A stretch of DNA of 36,538 nt from a virus (Duplodnaviria; Heunggongvirae; Uroviricota; Caudoviricetes), in the IMG/VR virus record IMGVR_UViG_2654587996_000001, positions 1 to 36,538 of that record. One strand, given 5' to 3'. Shown piece by piece: positions 2,224-17,387 of the stretch; the first letter of the stretch is position 1, and every line of letters starts with the position of its first letter. The position numbers and the translations under genes were made by a program. Below the pieces are notes generated by a model that worked only from the letters and a program-made list of their open reading frames with translations, was not told the origin of the DNA and ran no database searches.

Positions 2224-4302
2224 TTATCCTGCTGACGGGGTATTCACTTCCACCACAATGCTGTCAATCAGCACCGGATATGTCGCAGCGCTGGTGATAT
2301 CAGTCACCCGTAATTTGTCTGCCGTAAACGTGCCAACCGGAGACTGAGACAGCATGAATGGTGTCCCGTCCTTACCATCAATGACCGGCGTCACCTCAAT
2401 ACTGTTGTTACCGGCAAAACGGAAGCCCAGCGTATGCCATTCGTTATTAAATGCACCGAATGACCCCAGTTTCGTGTTTTGCGCCGTATTGCCCTTGTGG
2501 TACATCACGTTAAGGTCTGTGGCATCGCTCTGAACGTAAAACGATGCCAGCAGGTTATGACCGGCATTACCTTCCAGAGTAACCCCTTGCGGCAGGGCAG
2601 AAACCGGCCAGTACAGCGCCATCGCGTACTGATTAGCCGTAAGCGTACCATCAACCTTAAACCGGCAACTGACAAGGCCACCTTTACCCAGCAGGTCCGC
2701 ACCATTACCGGCATCATGCTCAAGGTACCAGGAGGATTTGCCTGTTTCCTTGGTCAGTTTCATGGCCTTACCACTACCTGCTCCGGCATCATCCACGATT
2801 TCAGCCTTGCCACCTCCCGCGCTCCAGCCCTGTGGTGACAGCTGACCTTCTGATTCAGATGTCCGGTAAGCAAACAGCGTGCTCATCGTCGTGGTGTCAG
2901 CCGGTGGAGTGGACGGTGTATCCGGCGATGGTGTTGATGGGGAGTCAGGTGATGGCTTCTCATCCGGTGGTGTCACGGTCTGCCCGCCCATCAGTTCAGC
3001 CGTGCGCCCTGCATGGAGCAGAATAGCGGAGGCCAGACGGTCTGAAATAATGCCCCTGCGTGCCCATGAGCTGAAATGGCTGTCACGCTGTGTCGAGACA
3101 AAACTGCCCTGAGTACGGGATGCTGCACCATAATACCCGACAGCCACAATATCCGGGTCTTCCGCCGGAGCATTTGTTGGCGTGTTTGCGCCGTTTTCAT
3201 CTGTCAGGAACGGTACAAAGAAAATATTCTGTGCTTCCTTGCCTTTGTAGCCACCGTATACTGTCTCATATTTATCGGTGCCAGCGTTTTTCCAGTAATA
3301 CGTGGTATCACCGCAAATCCACGGCACCGTGGTGGCATTTCCGCTCACACACTGTGCAGCAAGTGAGGACAGGTCAGTCCTGAACTGCTGAACCATGGCC
3401 GTGAATAAACCGTTATGCTGCTGACTGCCTGAAGCAAGGTCTGCCTCGCCCTGCATCCATACCACCGCCAGCAGCCTGTTTTTCGGGTTCTTCGCCAGCG
3501 CCGCTTTTGTCCGGCTGACCATGTCCTGATACAGGGGTTTACCGGCACCCCAGCGTGCAGCGTCAGCGGATGCGCCACTGGCCTCACTGAATGTACCGTC
3601 GGCACCGGTGGTGAATGCAGAACCACCACGACAGCAGGGCACCAGAAGTATCCCTGCATTCTGCGGGATATACGACAGCAGCTTTTTGGCAATATGCAGC
3701 CCCTGACTGACACAGCCATACTGCCCCTTATTCAGGTCCGCTTTCGGATGATTAACACCGCTCATATCCTGTACATCATGCAGACAATGGTCAGCCGGAA
3801 TCACATCATTGTATGCACAGGCGTCTCCACCCGGCGTCACTGTACTGCGGCGTGCCAGCTGTTTAATGCGCGGGTCCGGGCGGTCATAAGAGTCCGGTAA
3901 CGGAAGCCCCTCACCGTAGGCCATGCCGTTGGACTGTCCGGCAAGCACAACCACGTAGTAATACTCCGGCTCTCTGTTGCCGCCACTCACACTGCCGGAA
4001 GACCCGGCGTTATCCGGTGCATTCCAGTCCGATGGGGTGAGCGTTCCGGCCACATCCGACGTAATGGGAATGACGCCGGTCACGCCAGAGCTGGTAATTT
4101 CTGCACTGGGGGTACCGGACACAGGCATTACCCATAATGGCTCTTTCGTGCTGAAGCGGATCACACAATCTGCAAAGGTGATCCCGCCTTTATTACCCGA
4201 AGGCCGGAAAGGGCTTTCAATAAATGCCACAGTGCCACCGGCAACCTTGACTGAAAACTCTCCGGGCATGGCGGAGAGCATTTTCCACTGGGAGTCTGAC
4301 AT
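2224..4302 (-). CDS. SGNH/SASA-family esterase domain protein with Pro/Ser/Thr linker and C-terminal beta-rich domain; candidate virion-associated receptor-modifying enzyme
   Basis: Motif VVVLAGQSNGMAYG (GQSN nucleophile block of sialate O-acetylesterase-like SGNH hydrolases); linker PPDEKPSPDSPSTPSPDTPSTPPADTTT; no N-terminal signal peptide; located just past the tail fiber genes. Confidence 0.7.
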   Translation of the reverse strand: MSDSQWKMLSAMPGEFSVKVAGGTVAFIESPFRPSGNKGGITFADCVIRFSTKEPLWVMPVSGTPSAEITSSGVTGVIPITSDVAGTLTPSDWNAPDNAGSSGSVSGGNREPEYYYVVVLAGQSNGMAYGEGLPLPDSYDRPDPRIKQLARRSTVTPGGDACAYNDVIPADHCLHDVQDMSGVNHPKADLNKGQYGCVSQGLHIAKKLLSYIPQNAGILLVPCCRGGSAFTTGADGTFSEASGASADAARWGAGKPLYQDMVSRTKAALAKNPKNRLLAVVWMQGEADLASGSQQHNGLFTAMVQQFRTDLSSLAAQCVSGNATTVPWICGDTTYYWKNAGTDKYETVYGGYKGKEAQNIFFVPFLTDENGANTPTNAPAEDPDIVAVGYYGAASRTQGSFVSTQRDSHFSSWARRGIISDRLASAILLHAGRTAELMGGQTVTPPDEKPSPDSPSTPSPDTPSTPPADTTTMSTLFAYRTSESEGQLSPQGWSAGGGKAEIVDDAGAGSGKAMKLTKETGKSSWYLEHDAGNGADLLGKGGLVSCRFKVDGTLTANQYAMALYWPVSALPQGVTLEGNAGHNLLASFYVQSDATDLNVMYHKGNTAQNTKLGSFGAFNNEWHTLGFRFAGNNSIEVTPVIDGKDGTPFMLSQSPVGTFTADKLRVTDITSAATYPVLIDSIVVEVNTPSAG

Positions 4303-4555: not shown

Positions 4556-5128
4556 ATGGCGATAGTATTATTCCTGTTTTTATCATTGATTCACATGGTG
4601 ATGTTTATGCAACTGATTAATGTTAAACGATATTACCCGGAACACAAACCCTATGGTAATGATGTACAGTATTTTCAGAGTGAAGATGGTAAGGATTTCT
4701 ACGAGTCCCTGCCATTATTCACAAAAAAATATAAACTTTGCATAACACCAGACAGCGGCGTTATCTGCTCAATATCACAGGACGCCTCGGCACTGTATCC
4801 TGCGGGTTTTTCCGTGGTTGAGGCCGATGAACTCCCTGAAGGCACGGATATTTCAGGAAACTGGACGTTTGATAATGGCGTTATCTCCCGGCTTCCGGTT
4901 AACTACACCAAAAAAGCGGAAGCACAGCGCCAGTCATATCTTAATCAGGCATATGAAAAAATTAATGACTGGAGAACTGAGCTACAACTGGGCACGATCA
5001 GTGATGAAGACAGAGCAGCACTTACCCAATGGATGGCATACATCAGTCAGGTGAAGAAAATGGAACTACCCGCCATTAAAACAGAAGCTGAATTTAACGC
5101 CATTAAATGGCCTGAGCTGCCACAGTAA
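4556..5128 (+). CDS. Tail fiber assembly (chaperone) protein; real start probably internal, around 4595-4607
   Basis: C-terminal region DWRTELQLGTISDEDRAALTQWMAYISQVKKM resembles conserved Tfa/U-family C-termini. On the opposite strand from all other structural genes. Confidence 0.65.
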   Translation: MAIVLFLFLSLIHMVMFMQLINVKRYYPEHKPYGNDVQYFQSEDGKDFYESLPLFTKKYKLCITPDSGVICSISQDASALYPAGFSVVEADELPEGTDISGNWTFDNGVISRLPVNYTKKAEAQRQSYLNQAYEKINDWRTELQLGTISDEDRAALTQWMAYISQVKKMELPAIKTEAEFNAIKWPELPQ

Positions 5129-5131
5129 TAA

Positions 5132-5151
5132 AGAAGGCCGGAAGGCCTTCT
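5132..5151. terminator. Bidirectional terminator hairpin between convergent tail fiber and Tfa genes
   Basis: Perfect 8-bp stem AGAAGGCC / GGCCTTCT with GGAA loop, placed between the Tfa stop (5126-5128) and the tail fiber stop (5160-5162); U-rich flanks on both strands. Confidence 0.6.
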
Positions 5152-5159
5152 GAATATCA

Positions 5160-6041
5160 TTATATACTTGCAGCCGTCACCCATGCTCCATTTAACAGAT
5201 ACTGCAACGGCCGGTAATACACGCCGCCGACGTTATCTGCCGTATTCTTACCGACATCCTGTACTTTAATTCCGGTAAGAACATTGCCGCCCCCCAGATT
5301 CAGATCCCAGCTTTCCCATGTTCCGGGCATATGTGCGGTCACAGACCCCAGCCTGATACCCGTCACTGTTCCTGATGAGATAGTGATATCCTGCGTTCCG
5401 TCAAAGGCGACACCATTGATTTTGTGGGCGTTGGCCAGCCTGTTTGCTGCAACAGCCGTGCCGTTCGATGGCAGGGCATTCGCGGCCTTGTTTACCGTAT
5501 CCCGTAAACCGACGTTATCGATAAAAGCCCCTTTATCCGGAATGTCTGCGCCGTTCTGCTCCCTGCGCAGGTAATGGTTATCACCTTCGCTCCTGCTGTA
5601 AACATCCAGATTATTACGGGCGGTCCCCTTATTCTCCAGATCGGCCAGATTCTGATCCTTTGCCAGTGCATTAACGTCACCGGGACCAAGACTGTTTTTT
5701 GTGGCAAGCGTCCCCAGACCAAGATAACCACGGGCCAGACGCTGGGCCTCCGCACCGGCATCAGCAATTTCTTTCAGGTTATTTTTCCGGGAAAAGGCAT
5801 TCGCAGCGATAATGGCTTTAATGGACAGCGTAAGCTGGTTTAACTGCGCCTTATCCGGCTGGATATTGGCTTCAGCCAGAATATTCAGCAGTTCGGCCTG
5901 GAGAATATTCAGCCAGTCCTGACCGATCCAGCTGATACCTTTCTGTCCGTCACCTTCGGTAAACCAGGTGGTGGTATTACTCTGCGCCGGTGCCAGCGCA
6001 GGCATATTCGCCACGCCGGAATTATTATCAACATGAAACAT
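5160..6041 (-). CDS. Tail fiber protein (S-like), 293 aa
   Basis: Position after the baseplate genes; N-terminal [13 protein letters not shown] segment typical of tail fiber N-termini; Gly/Asn-rich C-terminal part. Confidence 0.65.
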
Positions 6042-9835: not shown

Positions 9836-11177
9836 TGATCACCTCCACACTGCGGCCCCCCGGAACAAAAACCGGATCGGGGATGTTGTTCCGGCGGACA
9901 AAATACTGCCAGCGGCGGCTGTTGCCGGTGGCCCGGTACAGCGTGACCAGTGCCGGTTCGGTGGTGCGCACCATGACCTGAGAGGCACCGGGAAGATGTA
10001 CGCTCCGTGTGGTCAAATCTTCTGTCAGCGCAAGTCTGGCATCCCGTAATGCAAGGGCGGTGCCGGTATAGCCCTGCGCGGACAGATCCAGCACCTGTTG
10101 TTCCATGGCATCACTCAAATCCCGGTTGATACGCTGCACATCAGCAGAACTTTCCAGCCAGGCGGGTCTGCCCGCCCGGTCATTATCCTGAACGTGCGTC
10201 GTATCCTGCCGGATGACCTGATCCAGCAGTTTTCCGACCGTCTGCGCCTGCGACACCAGGGTTGCGCCCTGCATGACGGTACGCAGCAGGCGGATATTTT
10301 TCTGTGCCGCAGGCGTCAGACCAATCAGACGCTGCGGATCATCCTGTTCGCTGAGGGTGTAACGCAGGGAAGAAAGTGTGCGGTACAGCTGCGGCATGGC
10401 CTGCTCTGTCATGCTGTTACGGTTTGTGTCCAGGCTGCCGGATGGTGTCCCGGGCTGGCCGGTCAGTGACAGGGACGGATCGCCGGGCAGCCCCGCCAGC
10501 ACGGCAAACATGCCTGCCAGCGATTCAGCCATGCGACGGGGCGCATTAATCAGGGCCGTGGCATTGCCTTTCAGGGCCACAAAGCTGGCCGTAAAGGCAC
10601 TGATATCCTGCACAATCCCCATCCCCGAAACGGCATTTTCCAGCGCATCAATTTTGTCGCTGATGGTGTCGGTCATGGCCTGCACATCATGCAGGCCGTC
10701 TGAAATCACCGTCCAGCCGTCTGAAAGTGTGTTAAACAGCTGATTCATTGCTGAACCGCTTTTCTGCCCCAGCGCAGCTGCCGTATCTTCTGCCACCGAG
10801 GGTGCGGTATCGTCACTGGCGGGGATCACGTTGATCGTGAACTCAACCGTTCCCTGTTCGCTGGCGTTATAACGGCTTTCAAAGCTGTTTATCAGCACGT
10901 TTAACGTGCCGTAATCCGGGTGCATCAGTTCACCGGCACCGGGTGCCCGCAGCGCATCACGCAGGCGGCTTCGCTGCGTCTGAAGATCGTCTCCGGTCAC
11001 CAGAACCGTGAATGTGAACTCCGGGAGTTTTGGTCCTAAATCATCCGCACCGCCGCTTTCACGCAGCGGATATTCACGGCGCACAATGTTACGTCCGCCC
11101 CGTTCCCGCTGCTCCTGATAAACCAGGAACGGCACGCCACGAAAGGAGCCACGCCCCGGCGTGTCAGTAGAGGCCAT
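9819..11177 (-). CDS. DNA circulation protein (Mu gp43/P-like)
   Basis: 452 aa immediately downstream of the tape measure gene; overlapping start. Confidence 0.5.
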   Translation of the reverse strand: MASTDTPGRGSFRGVPFLVYQEQRERGGRNIVRREYPLRESGGADDLGPKLPEFTFTVLVTGDDLQTQRSRLRDALRAPGAGELMHPDYGTLNVLINSFESRYNASEQGTVEFTINVIPASDDTAPSVAEDTAAALGQKSGSAMNQLFNTLSDGWTVISDGLHDVQAMTDTISDKIDALENAVSGMGIVQDISAFTASFVALKGNATALINAPRRMAESLAGMFAVLAGLPGDPSLSLTGQPGTPSGSLDTNRNSMTEQAMPQLYRTLSSLRYTLSEQDDPQRLIGLTPAAQKNIRLLRTVMQGATLVSQAQTVGKLLDQVIRQDTTHVQDNDRAGRPAWLESSADVQRINRDLSDAMEQQVLDLSAQGYTGTALALRDARLALTEDLTTRSVHLPGASQVMVRTTEPALVTLYRATGNSRRWQYFVRRNNIPDPVFVPGGRSVEVISEQQD

Positions 11178-13221
11178 AGTTTCCTCCGTTCCAGACGTTC
11201 ACATCAAGGCCATGCTGTGCGGTATCATCCACATCAATACTGCGTGCCCGCCAGCCTTCAGGGGCAACCAGCTCCACCCGTGCGGCGGTTTTCGCGGTGG
11301 CCTGTCCGCCGTTTTCATCACTGCCGCCACGCAGTTTCTGCCAGGCCTGCGTCAGCCAGCCCCCCAGATAATCACCAAGATAGCTGCCCACCGTGGAACC
11401 AATGGCAACCCCGACCGGACCGGCAGCCGCCCCCAGTGCGCCACCGGCGATACTACCGGCAAGGGAACCCACGGCACCGGCTTTATCGGCTGCACTGGCG
11501 CTGCTGTCCAGCAGTACAGGGGCCGCCATGGCACCGGCCCACAGGGCACCACCGCCCAGCCGACCGGCACCACGGAACAGCCCGGAAAAACGTCCCAGCC
11601 CCATGCGGTTTCCGGCAGCCGTCAGCAGCCCACCGGCACGGCTCATCATGCGACCGAAGAAGCCCTGTTTACCGGCACTTTCCGCCAGCTGCTCACCGGC
11701 GGTCACGACGGTCTGAACACCCCGTCCGCGTCCGGGGCCGCGCTTTTTACGGCCGCGCACGGTTTTGCCGTCACCGCTGACCATCACATCCCCGCCACCT
11801 GATGCCAGACCACCCGCAGGCCAGTTAGTGACCAGTACGGGCTGAACGGCAGCAGGATTTATCCCGGTAAGAAAGTTCATAAAACGCTGGCCGCGTCCGG
11901 GCTGCGTTCCCGGCACAGTGGTCTGTGGTTTGCGGAAAGGTGAGGTCAGCACGGCGGCCGTGGACAATCCGTACCCTAACAATGCAGCTCCCGGTCGCAG
12001 TGCCCCAATCCCTATGGCGCGGACCGCCTTCAGCGCACGGGTGGCGAGATACATATACAGGAGATATTTCGCCGCTGTCTGTGCGCCCTGACCAATGCGA
12101 TCCAGTGCATCGCCATAACCGGCGTCGCGCAGTGCCTGAAGGGTTTCCCTGACTTTCTGAATGGCCCGGTAAAAGCCGGTCGCAGCGTCTCTGGCATACT
12201 CAAATCCCCGATTAAGGGCCGAGGCCGTCTGCGTGGCCAGCTTATCCTGTAAGCCGCTTTTCTGTGCCGCATCGGCATAATCCAGGAAGCCCTTCAGGCT
12301 CTTTTTCAGGCTGTCAAACGGCCCCTTTGCCATCACATCACGGGCAAACTGATCCCAGACATCTCCCATCATGGAGGTCATCCCTGTCCAGGAGTTCATG
12401 GCATTTTTCTGGGCACCTTTTGCCTGTTCGGCCATCACCTGAAATAACAGACGAATGCTGTCCGGTCCCAGTTTTCCTTTCTCGCCTTTCTCACGGATGA
12501 TCTTCTGGTTTACACCCAGCTTATCGGCCAGTAACTGGTAAACGTTGATCCCGTATCCGGTCAGGATATTGGCGTCCGCTGCCTGAATACTCTGACGGGC
12601 AAACATCTGTTTGAGTTGCAGGGACGCACCCTGTGCATCTGACAGTGACCAGCCGTGATAGCCACCCTGATCCTGAAGCATGGTAATAAAGCGGCGGGCT
12701 TCCCTGTCACTCATACCGAACCCGCGACTGGAGGCGTATTCCTGCATAACCCCCGCCAGCCCCCAGGTGGTGTCTTTGGCGTTCTGTACCGCCCAGGCTT
12801 TCACTGCTTCCGTTTTTGCCGTATCGCCATGATTAATGGCATTGAGACGCAGAATATAGTTCTCCATCTCTGCGGCCGGGCGGATAAAGGCTTTATTAAA
12901 ACCGTAGACCGCAGCCCCACCTGCCAGCATCCCGTAAAGGTTGCTGAGGCGTCCCAGCGTGCCGGTAATACTGCCCTGAAGCCGGTCAAAATCCGACGTC
13001 ACCGTGCGGATACTGCCACGGACACCGGCAAGCGTTCGCTGCATACGGGAGCCGACAAGCTCTGTCTCCTGACCGGCACGGCGGGCTGCATTTCCAATAC
13101 CACCCAGGCCTGTCCTGCCGGAACGGGAGAATGCCCCCAGCTCCTGTGACCACTGGCGGGATTTGGCGGAAATATTGCCGAGTAAATCGACAATCAGGGA
13201 GGCTTTCAGGTTTTTTGCCAT
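11164..13221 (-). CDS. Tail tape measure protein
   Basis: 685 aa, coiled-coil-like N-terminal half and Gly/Ala-rich C-terminal segments; follows the tail chaperone pair. Confidence 0.75.
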   Translation of the reverse strand: MAKNLKASLIVDLLGNISAKSRQWSQELGAFSRSGRTGLGGIGNAARRAGQETELVGSRMQRTLAGVRGSIRTVTSDFDRLQGSITGTLGRLSNLYGMLAGGAAVYGFNKAFIRPAAEMENYILRLNAINHGDTAKTEAVKAWAVQNAKDTTWGLAGVMQEYASSRGFGMSDREARRFITMLQDQGGYHGWSLSDAQGASLQLKQMFARQSIQAADANILTGYGINVYQLLADKLGVNQKIIREKGEKGKLGPDSIRLLFQVMAEQAKGAQKNAMNSWTGMTSMMGDVWDQFARDVMAKGPFDSLKKSLKGFLDYADAAQKSGLQDKLATQTASALNRGFEYARDAATGFYRAIQKVRETLQALRDAGYGDALDRIGQGAQTAAKYLLYMYLATRALKAVRAIGIGALRPGAALLGYGLSTAAVLTSPFRKPQTTVPGTQPGRGQRFMNFLTGINPAAVQPVLVTNWPAGGLASGGGDVMVSGDGKTVRGRKKRGPGRGRGVQTVVTAGEQLAESAGKQGFFGRMMSRAGGLLTAAGNRMGLGRFSGLFRGAGRLGGGALWAGAMAAPVLLDSSASAADKAGAVGSLAGSIAGGALGAAAGPVGVAIGSTVGSYLGDYLGGWLTQAWQKLRGGSDENGGQATAKTAARVELVAPEGWRARSIDVDDTAQHGLDVNVWNGGNYGLY

Positions 13222-13224
13222 GGG

Positions 13225-13437
13225 TTACTGCTTCGCTCTGAGAATTTTTTCGGTCTGTCGGCAGTGCCGGTAAAGCTGCGATAAGGGGAGGTTAAGCGCC
13301 CATTCCGGGCCGCTTTTTGTCACCATCCCCAGCACAATGGCTGCTTCTTCAATCTGATCCCGGCACTGCATCTGGTCGCCCCCGTTCAGCGACCAGCTTT
13401 CCGGCCATCGCGGAATCAAGCAGGCCTATCGCCGCCA
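13225..13437 (-). CDS. Candidate frameshift extension of the tail assembly chaperone
   Basis: Open frame overlapping the 3' end of ORF 13349-13825 and ending 3 nt before the tape measure ATG; it is +1 relative to the upstream frame. Confidence 0.4.
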
Positions 13438-13825
13438 TCAGACGGGAGAGATCGCGCTCGCTGAGCTGTCCGATCTGACGCGGAGACAATGGTCCCTCAA
13501 TCTGGCCGACAGCGGCAATCTGACGGCGCAGCAGCGCAATGCCGCGCAGTGCCGGTGAGGCCACCAGAACCGGACCGTTTCGGGTTTCCATAAGACGCTC
13601 GGCCTCGGTTTCCGCATCAATGCTGTCTTTCGCTGTCAGTTCGCGGAAGGTGACGCGGTATTCACGGGATTCCCCGAACGGCAGGCCATCAAGCAGATCC
13701 ACATAGCCGTTCGCCAGCTGTTCAGCCAGCCCGGCGGTGCGGGGATCGCCGTCCTCAAGCGCATCACGGATAGCCTCAATCACGGCCTCGTCAGAGACCG
13801 CCGTTTTTTTCTTGCGTGTGCTCAT
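13349..13825 (-). CDS. Tail assembly chaperone (Mu gp41 position)
   Basis: 158 aa acidic protein between the tail tube and tape measure genes. Confidence 0.5.
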   Translation of the reverse strand: MSTRKKKTAVSDEAVIEAIRDALEDGDPRTAGLAEQLANGYVDLLDGLPFGESREYRVTFRELTAKDSIDAETEAERLMETRNGPVLVASPALRGIALLRRQIAAVGQIEGPLSPRQIGQLSERDLSRLMAAIGLLDSAMAGKLVAERGRPDAVPGSD

Positions 13826-13839
13826 TGCATTTTTCCTGA

Positions 13840-14205
13840 TTACTGGACACGGGTACTGGTGGCGCTGGCGAACTTCGCGGAAATATCACCGCCACCGTCA
13901 AGCGAGGCCGGTTCACTGCTCCAGGCTTTCGTCATCATGTGGACTTCGCCGGTATCGGCCACGAACTCAATCGTGACCGCAGTCCAGGTGTTGATTTCAT
14001 CGGCGGCCGGTGAACCTTCTCCGCCAGCCGGGAATTTACAGTCCAGCGTCGCTTCACGTGGTTTCTCGCGATAGCCATAGACTTTCGCGCCTTTCACCAC
14101 TTCACGCTCAAAGCCGGACGGGGAGAACGTGGCTCCCTCAAGGGTGGCGTATTCCTGTCCGTTCACACGGATGGTGGCCGTACCCTGATACTGTTTTCCG
14201 CTCAT
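13840..14205 (-). CDS. Tail tube protein
   Basis: 121 aa directly downstream of the sheath gene. Confidence 0.7.
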   Translation of the reverse strand: MSGKQYQGTATIRVNGQEYATLEGATFSPSGFEREVVKGAKVYGYREKPREATLDCKFPAGGEGSPAADEINTWTAVTIEFVADTGEVHMMTKAWSSEPASLDGGGDISAKFASATSTRVQ

Positions 14206-14213
14206 GCCTTACC

Positions 14214-15695
14214 TCACAAAATGAAGCGGATCTGCGCGGCCATGAAGCGGAACTGGTTAACCAGGTCCGGTGTACACATCACATCCAGACGGTTACGGTC
14301 TTTTGCGTTGCGCTCCACGAGCAGATTCTTTTTAAAGGTGTCCAGGTTTTCGACCAGCCCCTGATCCACCCATTCTTCCCCCAGCGCAATCAGCTGGAGC
14401 GTCATGATCTCCGGCGTCACGATATTCTGACCGGGCCGGACGGGGGTGCCGTTATCGGCCAGTTTGTGGCGCGGGAAACGCTGCGTGATAAAGGTGCGCA
14501 GGGAATAACGCAGGTATGACAGGGTGTAGATAGTTTCCACATCCAGATAGCTGGGATCGCTTTCGCCGTAAGCATTCTGGCGGTACATCGTCACCTGACG
14601 CTCAATCTGCACCACATCACCGGCCGCGATGGTCACGGTGGATATTCCGGTATAAAGCAGGCTGTTGCGCTCTTCCCTCGTCAGACGCGCCGGGGCTTCC
14701 GGTGCCATACGGGCAGGCAGCGCCAGTGTCTGTAATGGTCGGGCCGGATCTGTTGACAGGGACGGTGCACAGACCGCACAAATGGAGGCCGCCCAGATAT
14801 AATCCGGCTCCGGTGCCTTCGGAATGGAGGTGCAGGTAAACAGGAAGTCGTTCCGGGATTCACCAAAGCTGGTTACCGCGCCTAATGTGCCGGTGTGCGC
14901 CATCCAGACCATACCGTCGGACATTTTTACCGGTCCCCAGCGTTTCAGCAGCTCATCTGCCAGAATCTTAAGGTTTGCGCTGTCCTTATAGGGCATCACT
15001 ATATAGTTATACTGGCGCGTCCCCATGGCTGCGATACTGTGGGTGATATCCGGGTTTTTTGGCGCAGTACCACCGGCCAGCGACACCGTAATACCGGCTG
15101 GCGTGACTTCACCGGAATAATAATTCAGCCGGACATCATGCACGGAACACTCGCCGGTAAACTTCGCTGTCAGGGTGATCACTTTTCTGGTCTGATCCTG
15201 ATTGCCGTCCGGCACGGAAGTGCTGGCCGTCACCGGACTGTCATTGTCAGCGTTTATCATGGTGGAAAGATCATCCGCCAGAATGTTGCCCTGTTTGCCT
15301 TTCGTGACCGCCATATAATAAGGGCGACCGGCAATATAGAGATTCAGGGTGCCGTCTTCCGTTGCCGTACCGGAAAGCGTGATCGTGCCTGAAGTGGCGG
15401 TGCCGGTGCCTTCGCCCTGCGCAATGGCATACAGTTCCGTGTCAGGATTACTGGCAATAAAGGCTTCCACCATCCGGGCAATCATGGAGCCGCGTCCCCA
15501 GAGTTCTGTCGCCTGAGCGGCGCGGGTGATACGTACCGGGGAATCCACCACCCCGAACGCATTACGGTTTCGCTGCCCGAACAACAGCACCGCCTGCCGC
15601 TGTGGCGGCGTACCGGTCACGGCCATCGAGTTATTAATTTCAATCTGTATCAGCGGAATACGGTTGTTATCGCCGATGAAATCAAAGTTAATCAT
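14214..15695 (-). CDS. Contractile tail sheath protein
   Basis: 493 aa, syntenic with Mu L; followed by the tube gene. Confidence 0.8.
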   Translation of the reverse strand: MINFDFIGDNNRIPLIQIEINNSMAVTGTPPQRQAVLLFGQRNRNAFGVVDSPVRITRAAQATELWGRGSMIARMVEAFIASNPDTELYAIAQGEGTGTATSGTITLSGTATEDGTLNLYIAGRPYYMAVTKGKQGNILADDLSTMINADNDSPVTASTSVPDGNQDQTRKVITLTAKFTGECSVHDVRLNYYSGEVTPAGITVSLAGGTAPKNPDITHSIAAMGTRQYNYIVMPYKDSANLKILADELLKRWGPVKMSDGMVWMAHTGTLGAVTSFGESRNDFLFTCTSIPKAPEPDYIWAASICAVCAPSLSTDPARPLQTLALPARMAPEAPARLTREERNSLLYTGISTVTIAAGDVVQIERQVTMYRQNAYGESDPSYLDVETIYTLSYLRYSLRTFITQRFPRHKLADNGTPVRPGQNIVTPEIMTLQLIALGEEWVDQGLVENLDTFKKNLLVERNAKDRNRLDVMCTPDLVNQFRFMAAQIRFIL

Positions 15696-16525: not shown

Positions 16526-16941
16526 ATGAAGCCCTTCTGGTTGCGCCCGAATACCGCCGCATCAGACTGCACCTGCGGTAAATCCCCGGATTCAGGAGCC
16601 TCGCCGTCCGTATCCACGCCGACCGGCACGTTGCCGTTCATGACGTCTTTCAGCCAGGCCAGCGCCTCACGGTAACGGTCACGCGCCTGATCGGAGGCCC
16701 GCTGATCGCACAGGTAATAAAAGGCAATCGCGCAGCAGTGCTGAACAAGGACCGCCGGAACTACCGCCAGCGGCAGCGTGTAACGGGCAGACAGGTAACT
16801 GTCGATAAGGGCAGACGCATCCGTCAGCGCCCGGTTCAGCTTGCTTGTGTCCGGCTCATCCGAACGGGGCACGCTCAGTAATGACCTGAGAAAATCCTCG
16901 CGGTAACGCGCCCGCATATCGGTTTCGGTGGCGTAATTCAT
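16522..16941 (-). CDS. Head-tail connector protein, Mu gp36 position
   Basis: 139 aa; synteny only. Confidence 0.45.
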   Translation of the reverse strand: MNYATETDMRARYREDFLRSLLSVPRSDEPDTSKLNRALTDASALIDSYLSARYTLPLAVVPAVLVQHCCAIAFYYLCDQRASDQARDRYREALAWLKDVMNGNVPVGVDTDGEAPESGDLPQVQSDAAVFGRNQKGFI

Positions 16942-17387
16942 GCACGGACCTTTTTCGCCTGTTTCGCTTTGCTACCGGTATTTTTCCGGGGAGCATCCTG
17001 TCCGGCTTCGGCTTCGGCTTCGGCTTCGGCTTCGGCTTCGGCTTCGGCTTCGGCTTCGGCTTCGGCTTCGGCTTCGGCTTCGGCTTCGGCTTCGGCTTCG
17101 GCTCCGGCTAAATCTGCACCGGTCTCTGCATGAACCACACCCGCCACGGCTCCCGCATCATCACCAGGCGTCTGTAGTATTCGTACAGTGAGGCATGGCT
17201 CCGCTTCCAGTCGGGCAAGCTGCTCCGGGGTGACGTCAACCTGCTGGCGTCCCCGCATGAACAGGAACCCCGCACGACGAAACTGCGTACGACTGCAACG
17301 CACTTCTGCCAGTACCGTGACAGGATTGTCACCACTGACCCGAAGACCTGAATCATCTGTTGCTGCCACAGTGTGATGTTCATTCAT
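16938..17387 (-). CDS. Head protein carrying a (Glu-Ala)n repeat and a basic C-terminal tail
   Basis: 149 aa; the Glu-Ala run (one Gly-Ala plus 16 Glu-Ala pairs) is encoded by the hexanucleotide array at 17005-17106; lies between the major head gene and the connector-like gene. Confidence 0.55.
   Translation of the reverse strand: MNEHHTVAATDDSGLRVSGDNPVTVLAEVRCSRTQFRRAGFLFMRGRQQVDVTPEQLARLEAEPCLTVRILQTPGDDAGAVAGVVHAETGADLAGAEAEAEAEAEAEAEAEAEAEAEAEAEAEAEAEAGQDAPRKNTGSKAKQAKKVRA
17005..17106. repeat. Tandem hexanucleotide repeat (GCTTCG)16 plus one imperfect unit
   Basis: Read directly: 96 nt of perfect GCTTCG units at 17005-17100, then GCTCCG. Confidence 0.9.

What the first reader, a model, noticed from the sequence alone, without database searches (positions are those of the whole stretch)
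13225..13825. Tail chaperone pair needs a +1, not -1, frame change
The overlapping ORF pair upstream of the tape measure has the usual chaperone layout, but the downstream frame is +1 relative to the upstream one. Most characterised tail-chaperone shifts are -1, so either this phage uses +1 (or -2) recoding or the second ORF is a separate small gene.
Basis: partly seen in the sequence, partly recalled or inferred. Interest (0 to 1): 0.4.

Follow-up and report, generated by a model that had tools for sequence, protein, structure and literature searches.

The report
Known Mu-type -2 tail-chaperone frameshift
The odd "+1" frame relation between the two small genes ahead of the tape-measure gene is real. 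It is the textbook exception already shown in phage Mu: ribosomes slip back two bases on GG_GGG_CGA, and this Mu-like E. coli prophage carries that same site.

Summary
Observation confirmed. On the minus strand, a 158-aa tail-assembly-chaperone gene (13825..13349) overlaps by 77 nt an open frame that runs to 13225, 3 nt before the tape-measure ATG. That frame is +1 (equivalently -2) relative to the chaperone frame. The -1 frame closes after 21 codons.

The window is a near-complete Mu-type transposable prophage. The chaperone is a Pfam Gp41_Mu member (E 1e-31). Inside the overlap, in the right phase, is the window's only copy of GG_GGG_CGA (13383..13376). This is the octamer on which phage Mu makes its -2 frameshift, which is annotated as verified in GenBank record AF083977.

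In 104 of 105 related loci (55 distinct sequences, down to 33% protein identity) G_GGG_CGA is invariant and in phase. A 47-52-codon +1/-2 extension follows in each. Some Mu-type relatives have no start codon anywhere in that extension.

No conserved downstream RNA structure was found. One caveat: in this phage an ATG (13371) follows the G-run at Shine-Dalgarno distance, but it is not conserved in close relatives.

Verdict: an already known mechanism, simply left unannotated in E. coli prophage records. Low interest.

The parts
13349..13825 (-). Tail assembly chaperone gene (Mu gp41 / lambda gpG analogue). Gives 158 aa, 17.0 kDa, by standard decoding.
   Evidence: ORF. Pfam Gp41_Mu PF23746 E=1.3e-31, Phage_TAC_7 weak. 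phrog_508 'tail assembly chaperone' E=8e-42. 49% identical to Mu gp41. Mass.
13376..13383 (-). Slip site GG_GGG_CGA. In the zero frame it reads CGG(13384-13382) GGG(13381-13379) CGA(13378-13376), i.e. Arg148-Gly149-Arg150.
   Evidence: Sequence. Only copy in the window. Identical site and phase in Mu, D108 and SfMu. G_GGG_CGA is invariant in 104/105 related loci. Named as the Mu -2 site in PMC3458567.
13349..13425 (-). The 77-nt zone where the chaperone frame and the +1/-2 frame are both open. Any shift must occur here.
   Evidence: Across relatives the common overlap shrinks to about 20 nt around the site: the frame opens 8 nt before GGG, and the chaperone stop ends 11 nt after its first G (L024).
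13225..13377 (-). Extension (T-like) segment read in the -2 frame after the slip: GAC(13377-13375)...TAA(13227-13225), 50 aa, DQMQCRDQIEEAAIVLGMVTKSGPEWALNLPLSQLYRHCRQTEKILRAKQ. Bases 13377-13376 are read twice. Predicted fusion = Met1-Arg150 + these 50 aa = 200 aa, 22.0 kDa.
   Evidence: Translation. Homologous to the Mu/D108 extension. phrog_12783 E=5e-37. Among close relatives, variable sites in the non-overlapping part fall 17 at codon position 3 versus 4 and 3 at positions 1 and 2. Sizes. The junction follows the tandem-slip model of PMC3458567 and was not tested here.
13369..13371 (-). In-frame ATG in the extension frame, 7 nt after the G-run. A possible but unconserved independent start.
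   Evidence: Anti-SD duplex -8.6 kcal/mol. The codon is GCG in 82-91%-identical prophages and CTG in Mu.
13840..14205 (-). Tail tube gene (context).
   Evidence: Pfam Tail_tube E=5e-30.
14214..15695 (-). Tail sheath gene (context).
   Evidence: Pfam Phage_sheath_1, sheath_1C and domII.
11164..13221 (-). Tape measure gene (context). Its ATG lies 3 nt after the extension stop.
   Evidence: Pfam TMP_3 E=1.5e-17. Spacing. Weak SD, -2.2 kcal/mol.

Best explanation
This is the tail-assembly-chaperone recoding cassette of a Mu-type prophage. Most ribosomes translate gene 41 to its TGA and make a 158-aa chaperone. A small fraction slip back two nucleotides when GGG (Gly149) is in the P site and CGA (Arg150) is in the A site of CGG_GGG_CGA. 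The reported figure for Mu in vivo is about 2%. In the reported model the two tRNAs re-pair on GGG and GGC, and decoding continues at GAC in the -2 frame. This adds 50 residues and gives a 200-aa fusion that ends 3 nt before the tape-measure start. By analogy with lambda gpG/gpGT, the shared N-terminal part binds the tape measure protein. The extension recruits the tube subunit, so the slip frequency fixes the ratio of the two chaperone forms. Shown here: the frame relation, the site, its phase, its family-wide invariance, homology of both parts to Mu, and coding constraint on the extension. Inferred from Mu and lambda literature: that the fusion is made, that the shift is -2 and not +1, its efficiency, and the protein functions.
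For: The frame relation is +1/-2 and the -1 frame is closed. The window is a Mu-type prophage: MuA, MuB, Portal_Mu, Mu F, gpT, DNA_circ_N, Gp36/37/48 and Mom. The gene is a Gp41_Mu member. GG_GGG_CGA occurs once in the window, inside the overlap and in phase. The same octamer and phase occur in Mu, D108, SfMu, Pasteurella Pmp9, Alteromonadaceae B23, Vibrio phages and Shewanella MuM16-2, although these share only 33-49% protein identity. In 104/105 loci and 55 distinct sequences G_GGG_CGA is invariant, while neighbouring codons vary (12 different codons on each side). GGG makes up 19% of Gly codons and CGA 4.9% of Arg codons in this prophage. The codon before GGG is CGG, AGG, AAG, CAG or TCG. 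It always ends in G, as backward re-pairing requires and a forward slip does not. The +1/-2 frame extends at least 90 nt past the stop in 104/105 loci; the -1 frame does so in 6/105. The extension is homologous to Mu's and varies mainly at third codon positions. Mu-type relatives L066 and L072 have no ATG, GTG or TTG anywhere in the extension frame. GenBank AF083977 annotates a joined CDS with 'verified -2 translational frameshift in PMID 15469818'. Literature: PMC3458567 (site and tandem model), PMC3498833 (about 2.2%), PMC5009743 (phages use -1, -2 or +1; G/GT function). The Mu site alone gave 14% in a cell-free reporter (bioRxiv 10.1101/2025.10.02.679949). That fits the absence of a downstream structure here.
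Against: There is no protein-level evidence for this prophage. Sequence alone cannot separate -2 from +1 at this site. This phage, unlike Mu, has an ATG 7 nt after the G-run with an SD-like duplex, so a free 48-aa T peptide cannot be excluded. Xu et al. 2004 could not be read, so the details of the Mu experiment rest on secondary citations and the GenBank note.
Confidence: 0.9

Rival explanations
1. Same site and same two products, but the shift is +1. tRNA-Gly on GGG slips forward onto GG_C while the A site waits for the rare, poorly decoded CGA codon (hungry-codon mechanism). The fusion is then 199 aa (…ERG-DQMQ…).
For: The net frame change is identical. CGA is the third-rarest Arg codon in this prophage, at 4.9%. 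In 13 related loci the site has only four Gs (AAG/CAG/TCG GGG CGA), which weakens P-site re-pairing after a -2 slip. +1 shifts are known in other phage tail genes (PMC3498833; PMC5009743).
Against: The homologous Mu site is annotated and cited as an experimentally verified -2 shift. The base 5' of GGG is G in all 55 distinct sequences across five different codons. A forward slip does not need this; a backward slip does.
Confidence: 0.05
2. The second ORF is a separate small gene, started at ATG 13371 (48 aa) with the G-run serving as its Shine-Dalgarno sequence, or at TTG 13419. No fusion protein is needed.
For: ATG 13371 has an anti-SD duplex of -8.6 kcal/mol at 7-nt spacing, as good as real starts in this phage. 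Annotators have called the segment a separate ORF (D108 '41.5'). phrog_12783 is made of such calls.
Against: The ATG is replaced by GCG in 82-91%-identical E. coli prophages and by CTG in Mu. Mu-type sequences L066/L072 have no start codon at all in the conserved 51-codon frame. The first start elsewhere sits at codon 12-39 and would remove conserved residues. The slip site is invariant at the nucleotide level. TTG 13419 has a weak SD of -4.8 kcal/mol, and the frame upstream of the site is not conserved in length (8-158 nt).
Confidence: 0.04
3. The frame change is made by RNA polymerase slippage on the G-run (loss of one G or gain of two Gs in the mRNA), not by the ribosome.
For: The site contains a homopolymer run of five Gs. 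Locus L078 carries a one-G deletion that fuses the two frames at the DNA level.
Against: Five Gs is short for productive transcriptional slippage (established knowledge; typical sites are runs of 6-9 or more A/T). Thirteen relatives have only four Gs. The invariance of the following CGA codon has no role in polymerase slippage. The Mu site shifts in a cell-free translation reporter and is treated in the literature as ribosomal.
Confidence: 0.01

Closest known systems
Phage Mu gp41 / gp41-extension (Mu_41 / Mu_56) -2 programmed ribosomal frameshift (Xu, Hendrix & Duda 2004, Mol Cell 16:11)
   Same: Same gene family (Gp41_Mu) and same position between the tube and tape-measure genes. Identical slip octamer GG_GGG_CGA in the same phase. 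Same +1/-2 target frame. Homologous extension of about 50 aa ending just before the tape-measure start. No downstream RNA structure.
   Different: The chaperone is 158 aa against 144 aa and about 49% identical. The overlap is 77 nt against 38 nt, and the chaperone stop is 34 nt against 28 nt from the site. This phage has an ATG with an SD-like G-run just after the site, where Mu has CTG. The extension stop is 3 nt against 14 nt from the tape-measure ATG.
Lambda gpG/gpGT -1 frameshift (Levin, Hendrix & Casjens 1993) and P2 E/E+E'
   Same: Same genomic position, same logic of a short chaperone plus a rare C-terminally extended form, and presumably the same function in tail assembly (PMC5009743; PMC3091744).
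   Different: Those use tandem -1 slippage on X_XXY_YYZ heptamers (lambda G_GGA_AAG from my own knowledge; P2 TTTTTTG) into the -1 frame. Here the -1 frame is closed and the shift is by two bases. No detectable sequence similarity to lambda G. Only a weak match to the P2 E family (Phage_TAC_7, below cut-off).
+1 frameshifts in phage structural genes (Listeria phages PSA/A118 tsh, SPP1; PMC3498833)
   Same: Reaches the same relative frame (+1 is equivalent to -2).
   Different: Forward slip, one residue fewer, different site types. The homologous Mu site is reported as -2.

Membership tests
Mu-type -2 tail-chaperone frameshift cassette | Chaperone gene of the Gp41_Mu family located between the tail tube and tape measure genes of a Mu-like myophage | tested here: met
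   PF23746 E=1.3e-31. Gene order. Mu-type prophage context.
Mu-type -2 tail-chaperone frameshift cassette | [quoted passage not shown] | tested here: met
   13383..13376 on the minus strand, phase CGG GGG CGA. Identical in Mu, D108 and SfMu. Site named in PMC3458567.
Mu-type -2 tail-chaperone frameshift cassette | Extension ORF in the +1/-2 frame, homologous to the Mu extension, running to the tape-measure start, with the -1 frame closed | tested here: met
   tblastn of the fusion gives two pieces in Mu covering residues 33-195. phrog_12783 E=5e-37.
Mu-type -2 tail-chaperone frameshift cassette | Extension has no conserved independent start | tested here: inconclusive
   This window has ATG 13371 with an SD-like G-run. 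The codon is not conserved in close relatives or Mu, and some relatives have no start at all.
Mu-type -2 tail-chaperone frameshift cassette | A fusion protein is produced at a few per cent, with a junction showing a two-base backward shift | not testable with these tools
   Known only for Mu, via the GenBank note and reviews.
Lambda G/GT-type -1 frameshift | X_XXY_YYZ heptamer and an extension in the -1 frame | tested here: not met
   The -1 frame is open for only 21 codons and ends 29 nt past the stop. It extends at least 90 nt in only 6/105 relatives.
Lambda G/GT-type -1 frameshift | Functional layout: a short chaperone plus a rare extended form, encoded directly upstream of the tape measure gene | tested here: met
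   The function itself is inferred from PMC5009743.
Independent small gene (D108 '41.5'-style annotation) | Conserved start codon with a ribosome-binding site | tested here: not met
   Start codon position varies from codon 2 to 39 or is absent among 55 distinct sequences.
Frameshift stimulated by downstream RNA structure | Stable and/or covarying stem-loop or pseudoknot 3' of the slip site | tested here: not met
   106 nt downstream fold no better than shuffles (z=+0.81). RNAalifold on 21 diverse sequences predicts 0 pairs.

The most novel reading that the evidence does not exclude
In this E. coli lineage the slip-site G-run doubles as a Shine-Dalgarno sequence for ATG 13371, so a free 48-aa T peptide is made in addition to the -2 fusion. 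Separately, the 4-G variant sites (AAG/CAG/TCG_GGG_CGA) in Salmonella/Citrobacter-type relatives shift by a different route (+1, or -2 with a mismatched P site). That would make the family a natural series for asking what sets the direction of a shift. Neither reading is excluded by the sequence data.
Probability: 0.1. Interest if true: 0.35.

Novelty: already known. Interest (0 to 1): 0.1.

Why it matters
It matters mainly for annotation. This prophage type is present in 230 of 5,426 complete E. coli genomes. RefSeq annotates only the short chaperone and leaves a 127-nt 'intergenic' gap. Other records call the extension a separate hypothetical protein (D108 41.5; phrog_12783 'unknown function'). 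The correct feature is a joined CDS with ribosomal slippage, as in the curated Mu record. The comparative result is useful confirmation of the published mechanism but not a new discovery: an invariant G_GGG_CGA across 55 distinct sequences with no downstream structure.

Tried and rejected
1. Downstream stimulatory RNA structure. The single-sequence fold is not better than shuffles and the alignment fold gives 0 pairs, so this was rejected.
2. A -1 frameshift. The -1 frame is closed, so this was rejected.
3. Transcriptional slippage. Judged unlikely because the G-run is short, and only four Gs long in 13 relatives.
4. The genome-contig scan with the single protein returned only one locus (Citrobacter braakii). 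The viral-contig scan with an alignment was far more productive.
5. One search was a mis-specified two-sequence alignment and carries no information.
6. A PDB sequence search with the fusion found nothing meaningful. No structure prediction was run, because it would not bear on the recoding question.
7. Xu et al. 2004 is not held in the library. Its content is cited through the GenBank note and three later papers.
8. L078, the one locus lacking the in-phase site, turned out to carry a one-G deletion in the run plus a second indel. This is most likely sequencing error or a pseudogene, not a counter-example.

Full report
**What is there**

All relevant genes are on the minus strand. In order they are:
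- tail sheath, 15695..14214 (493 aa; Phage_sheath domains)
- tail tube, 14205..13840 (121 aa; Pfam Tail_tube)
- a 158-aa ORF, 13825..13349
- a second open frame that ends with TAA at 13227..13225
- the tape measure gene, 13221..11164 (685 aa; TMP_3)

The second frame is open from 13425. It overlaps the 158-aa ORF by 77 nt and continues 124 nt past its stop. Codon starts of the two frames are congruent to 1 and 0 mod 3. On the minus strand that makes the downstream frame +1, equivalently -2. The -1 frame is open for only 21 codons.

**Identity of the element**

The window is almost a whole Mu-type transposable prophage. It encodes MuA transposase, MuB, Portal_Mu, Mu F, the gpT major head protein, DNA_circ_N, Baseplate_J, Gp36, Gp37, Gp48 and, at the left edge, Mom.

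The 158-aa protein is a clear Gp41_Mu member (PF23746, E=1.3e-31; phrog_508 'tail assembly chaperone'). It is 96-99% identical to proteins named 'phage tail assembly protein' or 'Mu-like prophage FluMu protein gp41' in E. coli and Shigella. The 1.2-kb region is present in 230 of 5,426 complete E. coli genomes. It matches the 'inserted Bacteriophage Mu-like phage' of two Stx-phage records at 91%.

**The recoding site**

Inside the overlap the chaperone frame reads …GCT GAA CGG GGG CGA CCA GAT…. GG_GGG_CGA occupies 13383..13376 and is the only copy in the window on either strand. D108, SfMu and Mu have the same GAA CGG GGG CGA in the same phase near the end of gene 41.

The curated Mu record AF083977 carries a two-piece CDS. 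Its note reads 'verified -2 translational frameshift in PMID 15469818; tail assembly chaperone frameshift product'.

The literature agrees:
- PMC3498833 gives an efficiency of about 2.2%.
- PMC5009743 notes that tailed phages use -1, -2 or +1 at this position and lists Mu as the -2 case.

**Comparative test**

I collected 105 loci encoding relatives of the chaperone. They comprise annotated phages (Mu, D108, SfMu, Pasteurella Pmp9, Alteromonadaceae B23, Klebsiella Kp4866-3, Vibrio 1.028.O and martha 12B12, Shewanella MuM16-2), one Citrobacter genome, one E. coli genome and IMG/VR contigs. Findings:

- **Site conservation.** In 104 of them the heptamer G_GGG_CGA lies in phase within the last 120 nt of the gene, and 91 have the full octamer.
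- **The one exception.** L078 has a one-G deletion in the run that fuses the frames, plus a further indel. This is probably sequence error.
- **Local invariance.** Among the 55 distinct sequences (54 related loci plus the window itself), the two flanking codons each take 12 different forms, but GGG and CGA never change. In this prophage GGG is only 19% of Gly codons and CGA 4.9% of Arg codons.
- **The preceding codon.** It is CGG (42), AAG (6), AGG (4), TCG (2) or CAG (1), so it always ends in G. A backward slip needs that base; a forward slip does not.
- **Frame openness.** The +1/-2 frame stays open at least 90 nt beyond the stop in 104/105 loci, against 6/105 for the -1 frame.
- **Narrowing the shift position.** Across loci the shared overlap narrows to about 20 nt. 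The frame opens as late as 8 nt before GGG, and the chaperone stop ends as early as 11 nt after its first G.

**The extension is a real coding segment**

All loci have a 47-52-codon extension. The window's extension (…CRDQIEEAAIVLGMVTKSGPEWALNLPLSQLYRHCRQ…) aligns with Mu's (…CRNDIEKAATAIGVILKSGPEWALSLPLSRFFRHCQQ…). It matches phrog_12783 at E=5e-37. That family is labelled 'unknown function' and evidently consists of extensions called as separate ORFs.

Among nine close relatives, variable sites in the non-overlapping part fall 17 at codon position 3 against 4 and 3 at positions 1 and 2 of the -2 frame.

**Separate-gene rival**

In this window an ATG (13371) lies 7 nt after the G-run. The G-run can pair with the anti-SD at -8.6 kcal/mol, as strongly as genuine starts here.

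The comparative data argue against it:
- The codon is GCG in E. coli prophages that are 82-91% identical, and CTG in Mu.
- It is simply a hydrophobic position (M/L/A/I/V/K/Q).
- The first possible start elsewhere ranges from codon 2 to 39.
- Mu-type sequences L066 and L072 have no ATG, GTG or TTG anywhere in the extension.

A conserved peptide without a conserved start, behind an invariant slip site, argues for recoding. I cannot exclude that some free T peptide is also made in this particular phage.

**No stimulator found**

The 106 nt after the site fold no better than shuffled sequence (z=+0.81). An RNAalifold run on 21 diverse sequences gives no pairs, and the only invariant block is the slip site. 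Two observations from the literature fit this. A recent cell-free screen found the short Mu site alone among the most efficient sites in its frame, at 14%. P2-type phages also lack such structures.

**Mechanism and products**

- Standard decoding gives gp41: 158 aa, 17.0 kDa.
- With GGG in the P site and CGA in the A site, a minority of ribosomes move back two bases. Bases 13377-13376 are read twice and decoding resumes at GAC.
- Under the tandem model the result is Met1-Arg150 plus 50 residues: 200 aa, 22.0 kDa.
- In lambda, the common part binds the tape measure protein and the extension binds the tube subunit. The ratio of the two forms matters for assembly (PMC5009743). I infer the same roles here.

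[quoted passage not shown] They were not tested.

**Verdict**

The phenomenon is already known and experimentally established in the type phage of this family. What remains is an annotation gap. RefSeq E. coli records leave 127 nt unannotated, and D108 RefSeq lists a separate '41.5' hypothetical protein starting at a CTG codon.

Noticed in passing
L003, L016, L017, L046-L051 (AAG_GGG_CGA); L053, L054 (CAG_GGG_CGA); L085, L086 (TCG_GGG_CGA): Thirteen related loci (Citrobacter/Salmonella-type and others) have only four Gs at the slip site. After a -2 slip the P-site tRNA-Gly would then face AGG or CGG (2 of 3 pairs). The +1/-2 extension is still the open one (121-133 nt). Whether efficiency or direction differs is unknown.
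   Followed up: partly
window 13369-13383 (-): The slip-site G-run plus ATG 13371 looks like a good ribosome-binding site and start (duplex -8.6 kcal/mol, 7-nt spacer). The ATG is lineage-specific: GCG in 82-91%-identical prophages, CTG in Mu.
   Followed up: yes
window 13221-13227 (-); L018, L020, L021, L023-L025: The tape-measure ATG has almost no Shine-Dalgarno sequence (-2.2 kcal/mol) and sits 3 nt after the extension's stop. In relatives the extension stop lies between 17 nt inside and 14 nt before the tape-measure start. Some tape-measure initiation might be coupled to the frameshifted ribosomes. This is speculative and was not tested.
   Followed up: no
L078:1840-2000: One IMG/VR contig has a one-G deletion in the slip-site run that fuses chaperone and extension in frame, followed by a second frame-breaking indel. 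Probably homopolymer sequencing error or a decaying prophage.
   Followed up: partly
window 17003-17109: Perfect hexanucleotide tandem repeat (CGGCTT x 17.8, 99% matches). On the minus strand it encodes an (Glu-Ala)n run of about 35 residues in the 149-aa FluMu_N-domain protein (17387..16938), between the major head gene and gp36. It is likely length-variable between strains.
   Followed up: no
window 2224-4302 (-), 4556-5128 (+), 5128-5163: A 692-aa ORF with a SASA (sialate O-acetylesterase-like) domain and DUF6645 lies between the tail-fibre region and mom. A Caudo_TAP tail-fibre-assembly gene is on the opposite strand, convergent with the 293-aa ORF 6041..5160, with a GC-rich palindrome between them. 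No Gin-type invertase or long inverted repeats were seen, so there is no obvious Mu-like invertible G segment.
   Followed up: partly
L019:2452-2580; L001:3374-3520; phrog_12783: Annotation inconsistency for the same feature. RefSeq E. coli leaves the extension unannotated. RefSeq D108 lists '41.5 hypothetical protein' beginning at a CTG codon. PHROGs holds it as a 54-aa family of unknown function. Only GenBank AF083977 (Mu) has the joined frameshift CDS.
   Followed up: yes
window 13706-13825 (-): The E. coli/Salmonella-type gp41 carries about 40 extra N-terminal residues (MSTRKKKTAVSDEAV…AGLAEQLANGY) that are absent from the Vibrio, Shewanella, Pasteurella and Alteromonadaceae homologues (114-126 aa) and shorter in Mu (144 aa).
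   Followed up: no
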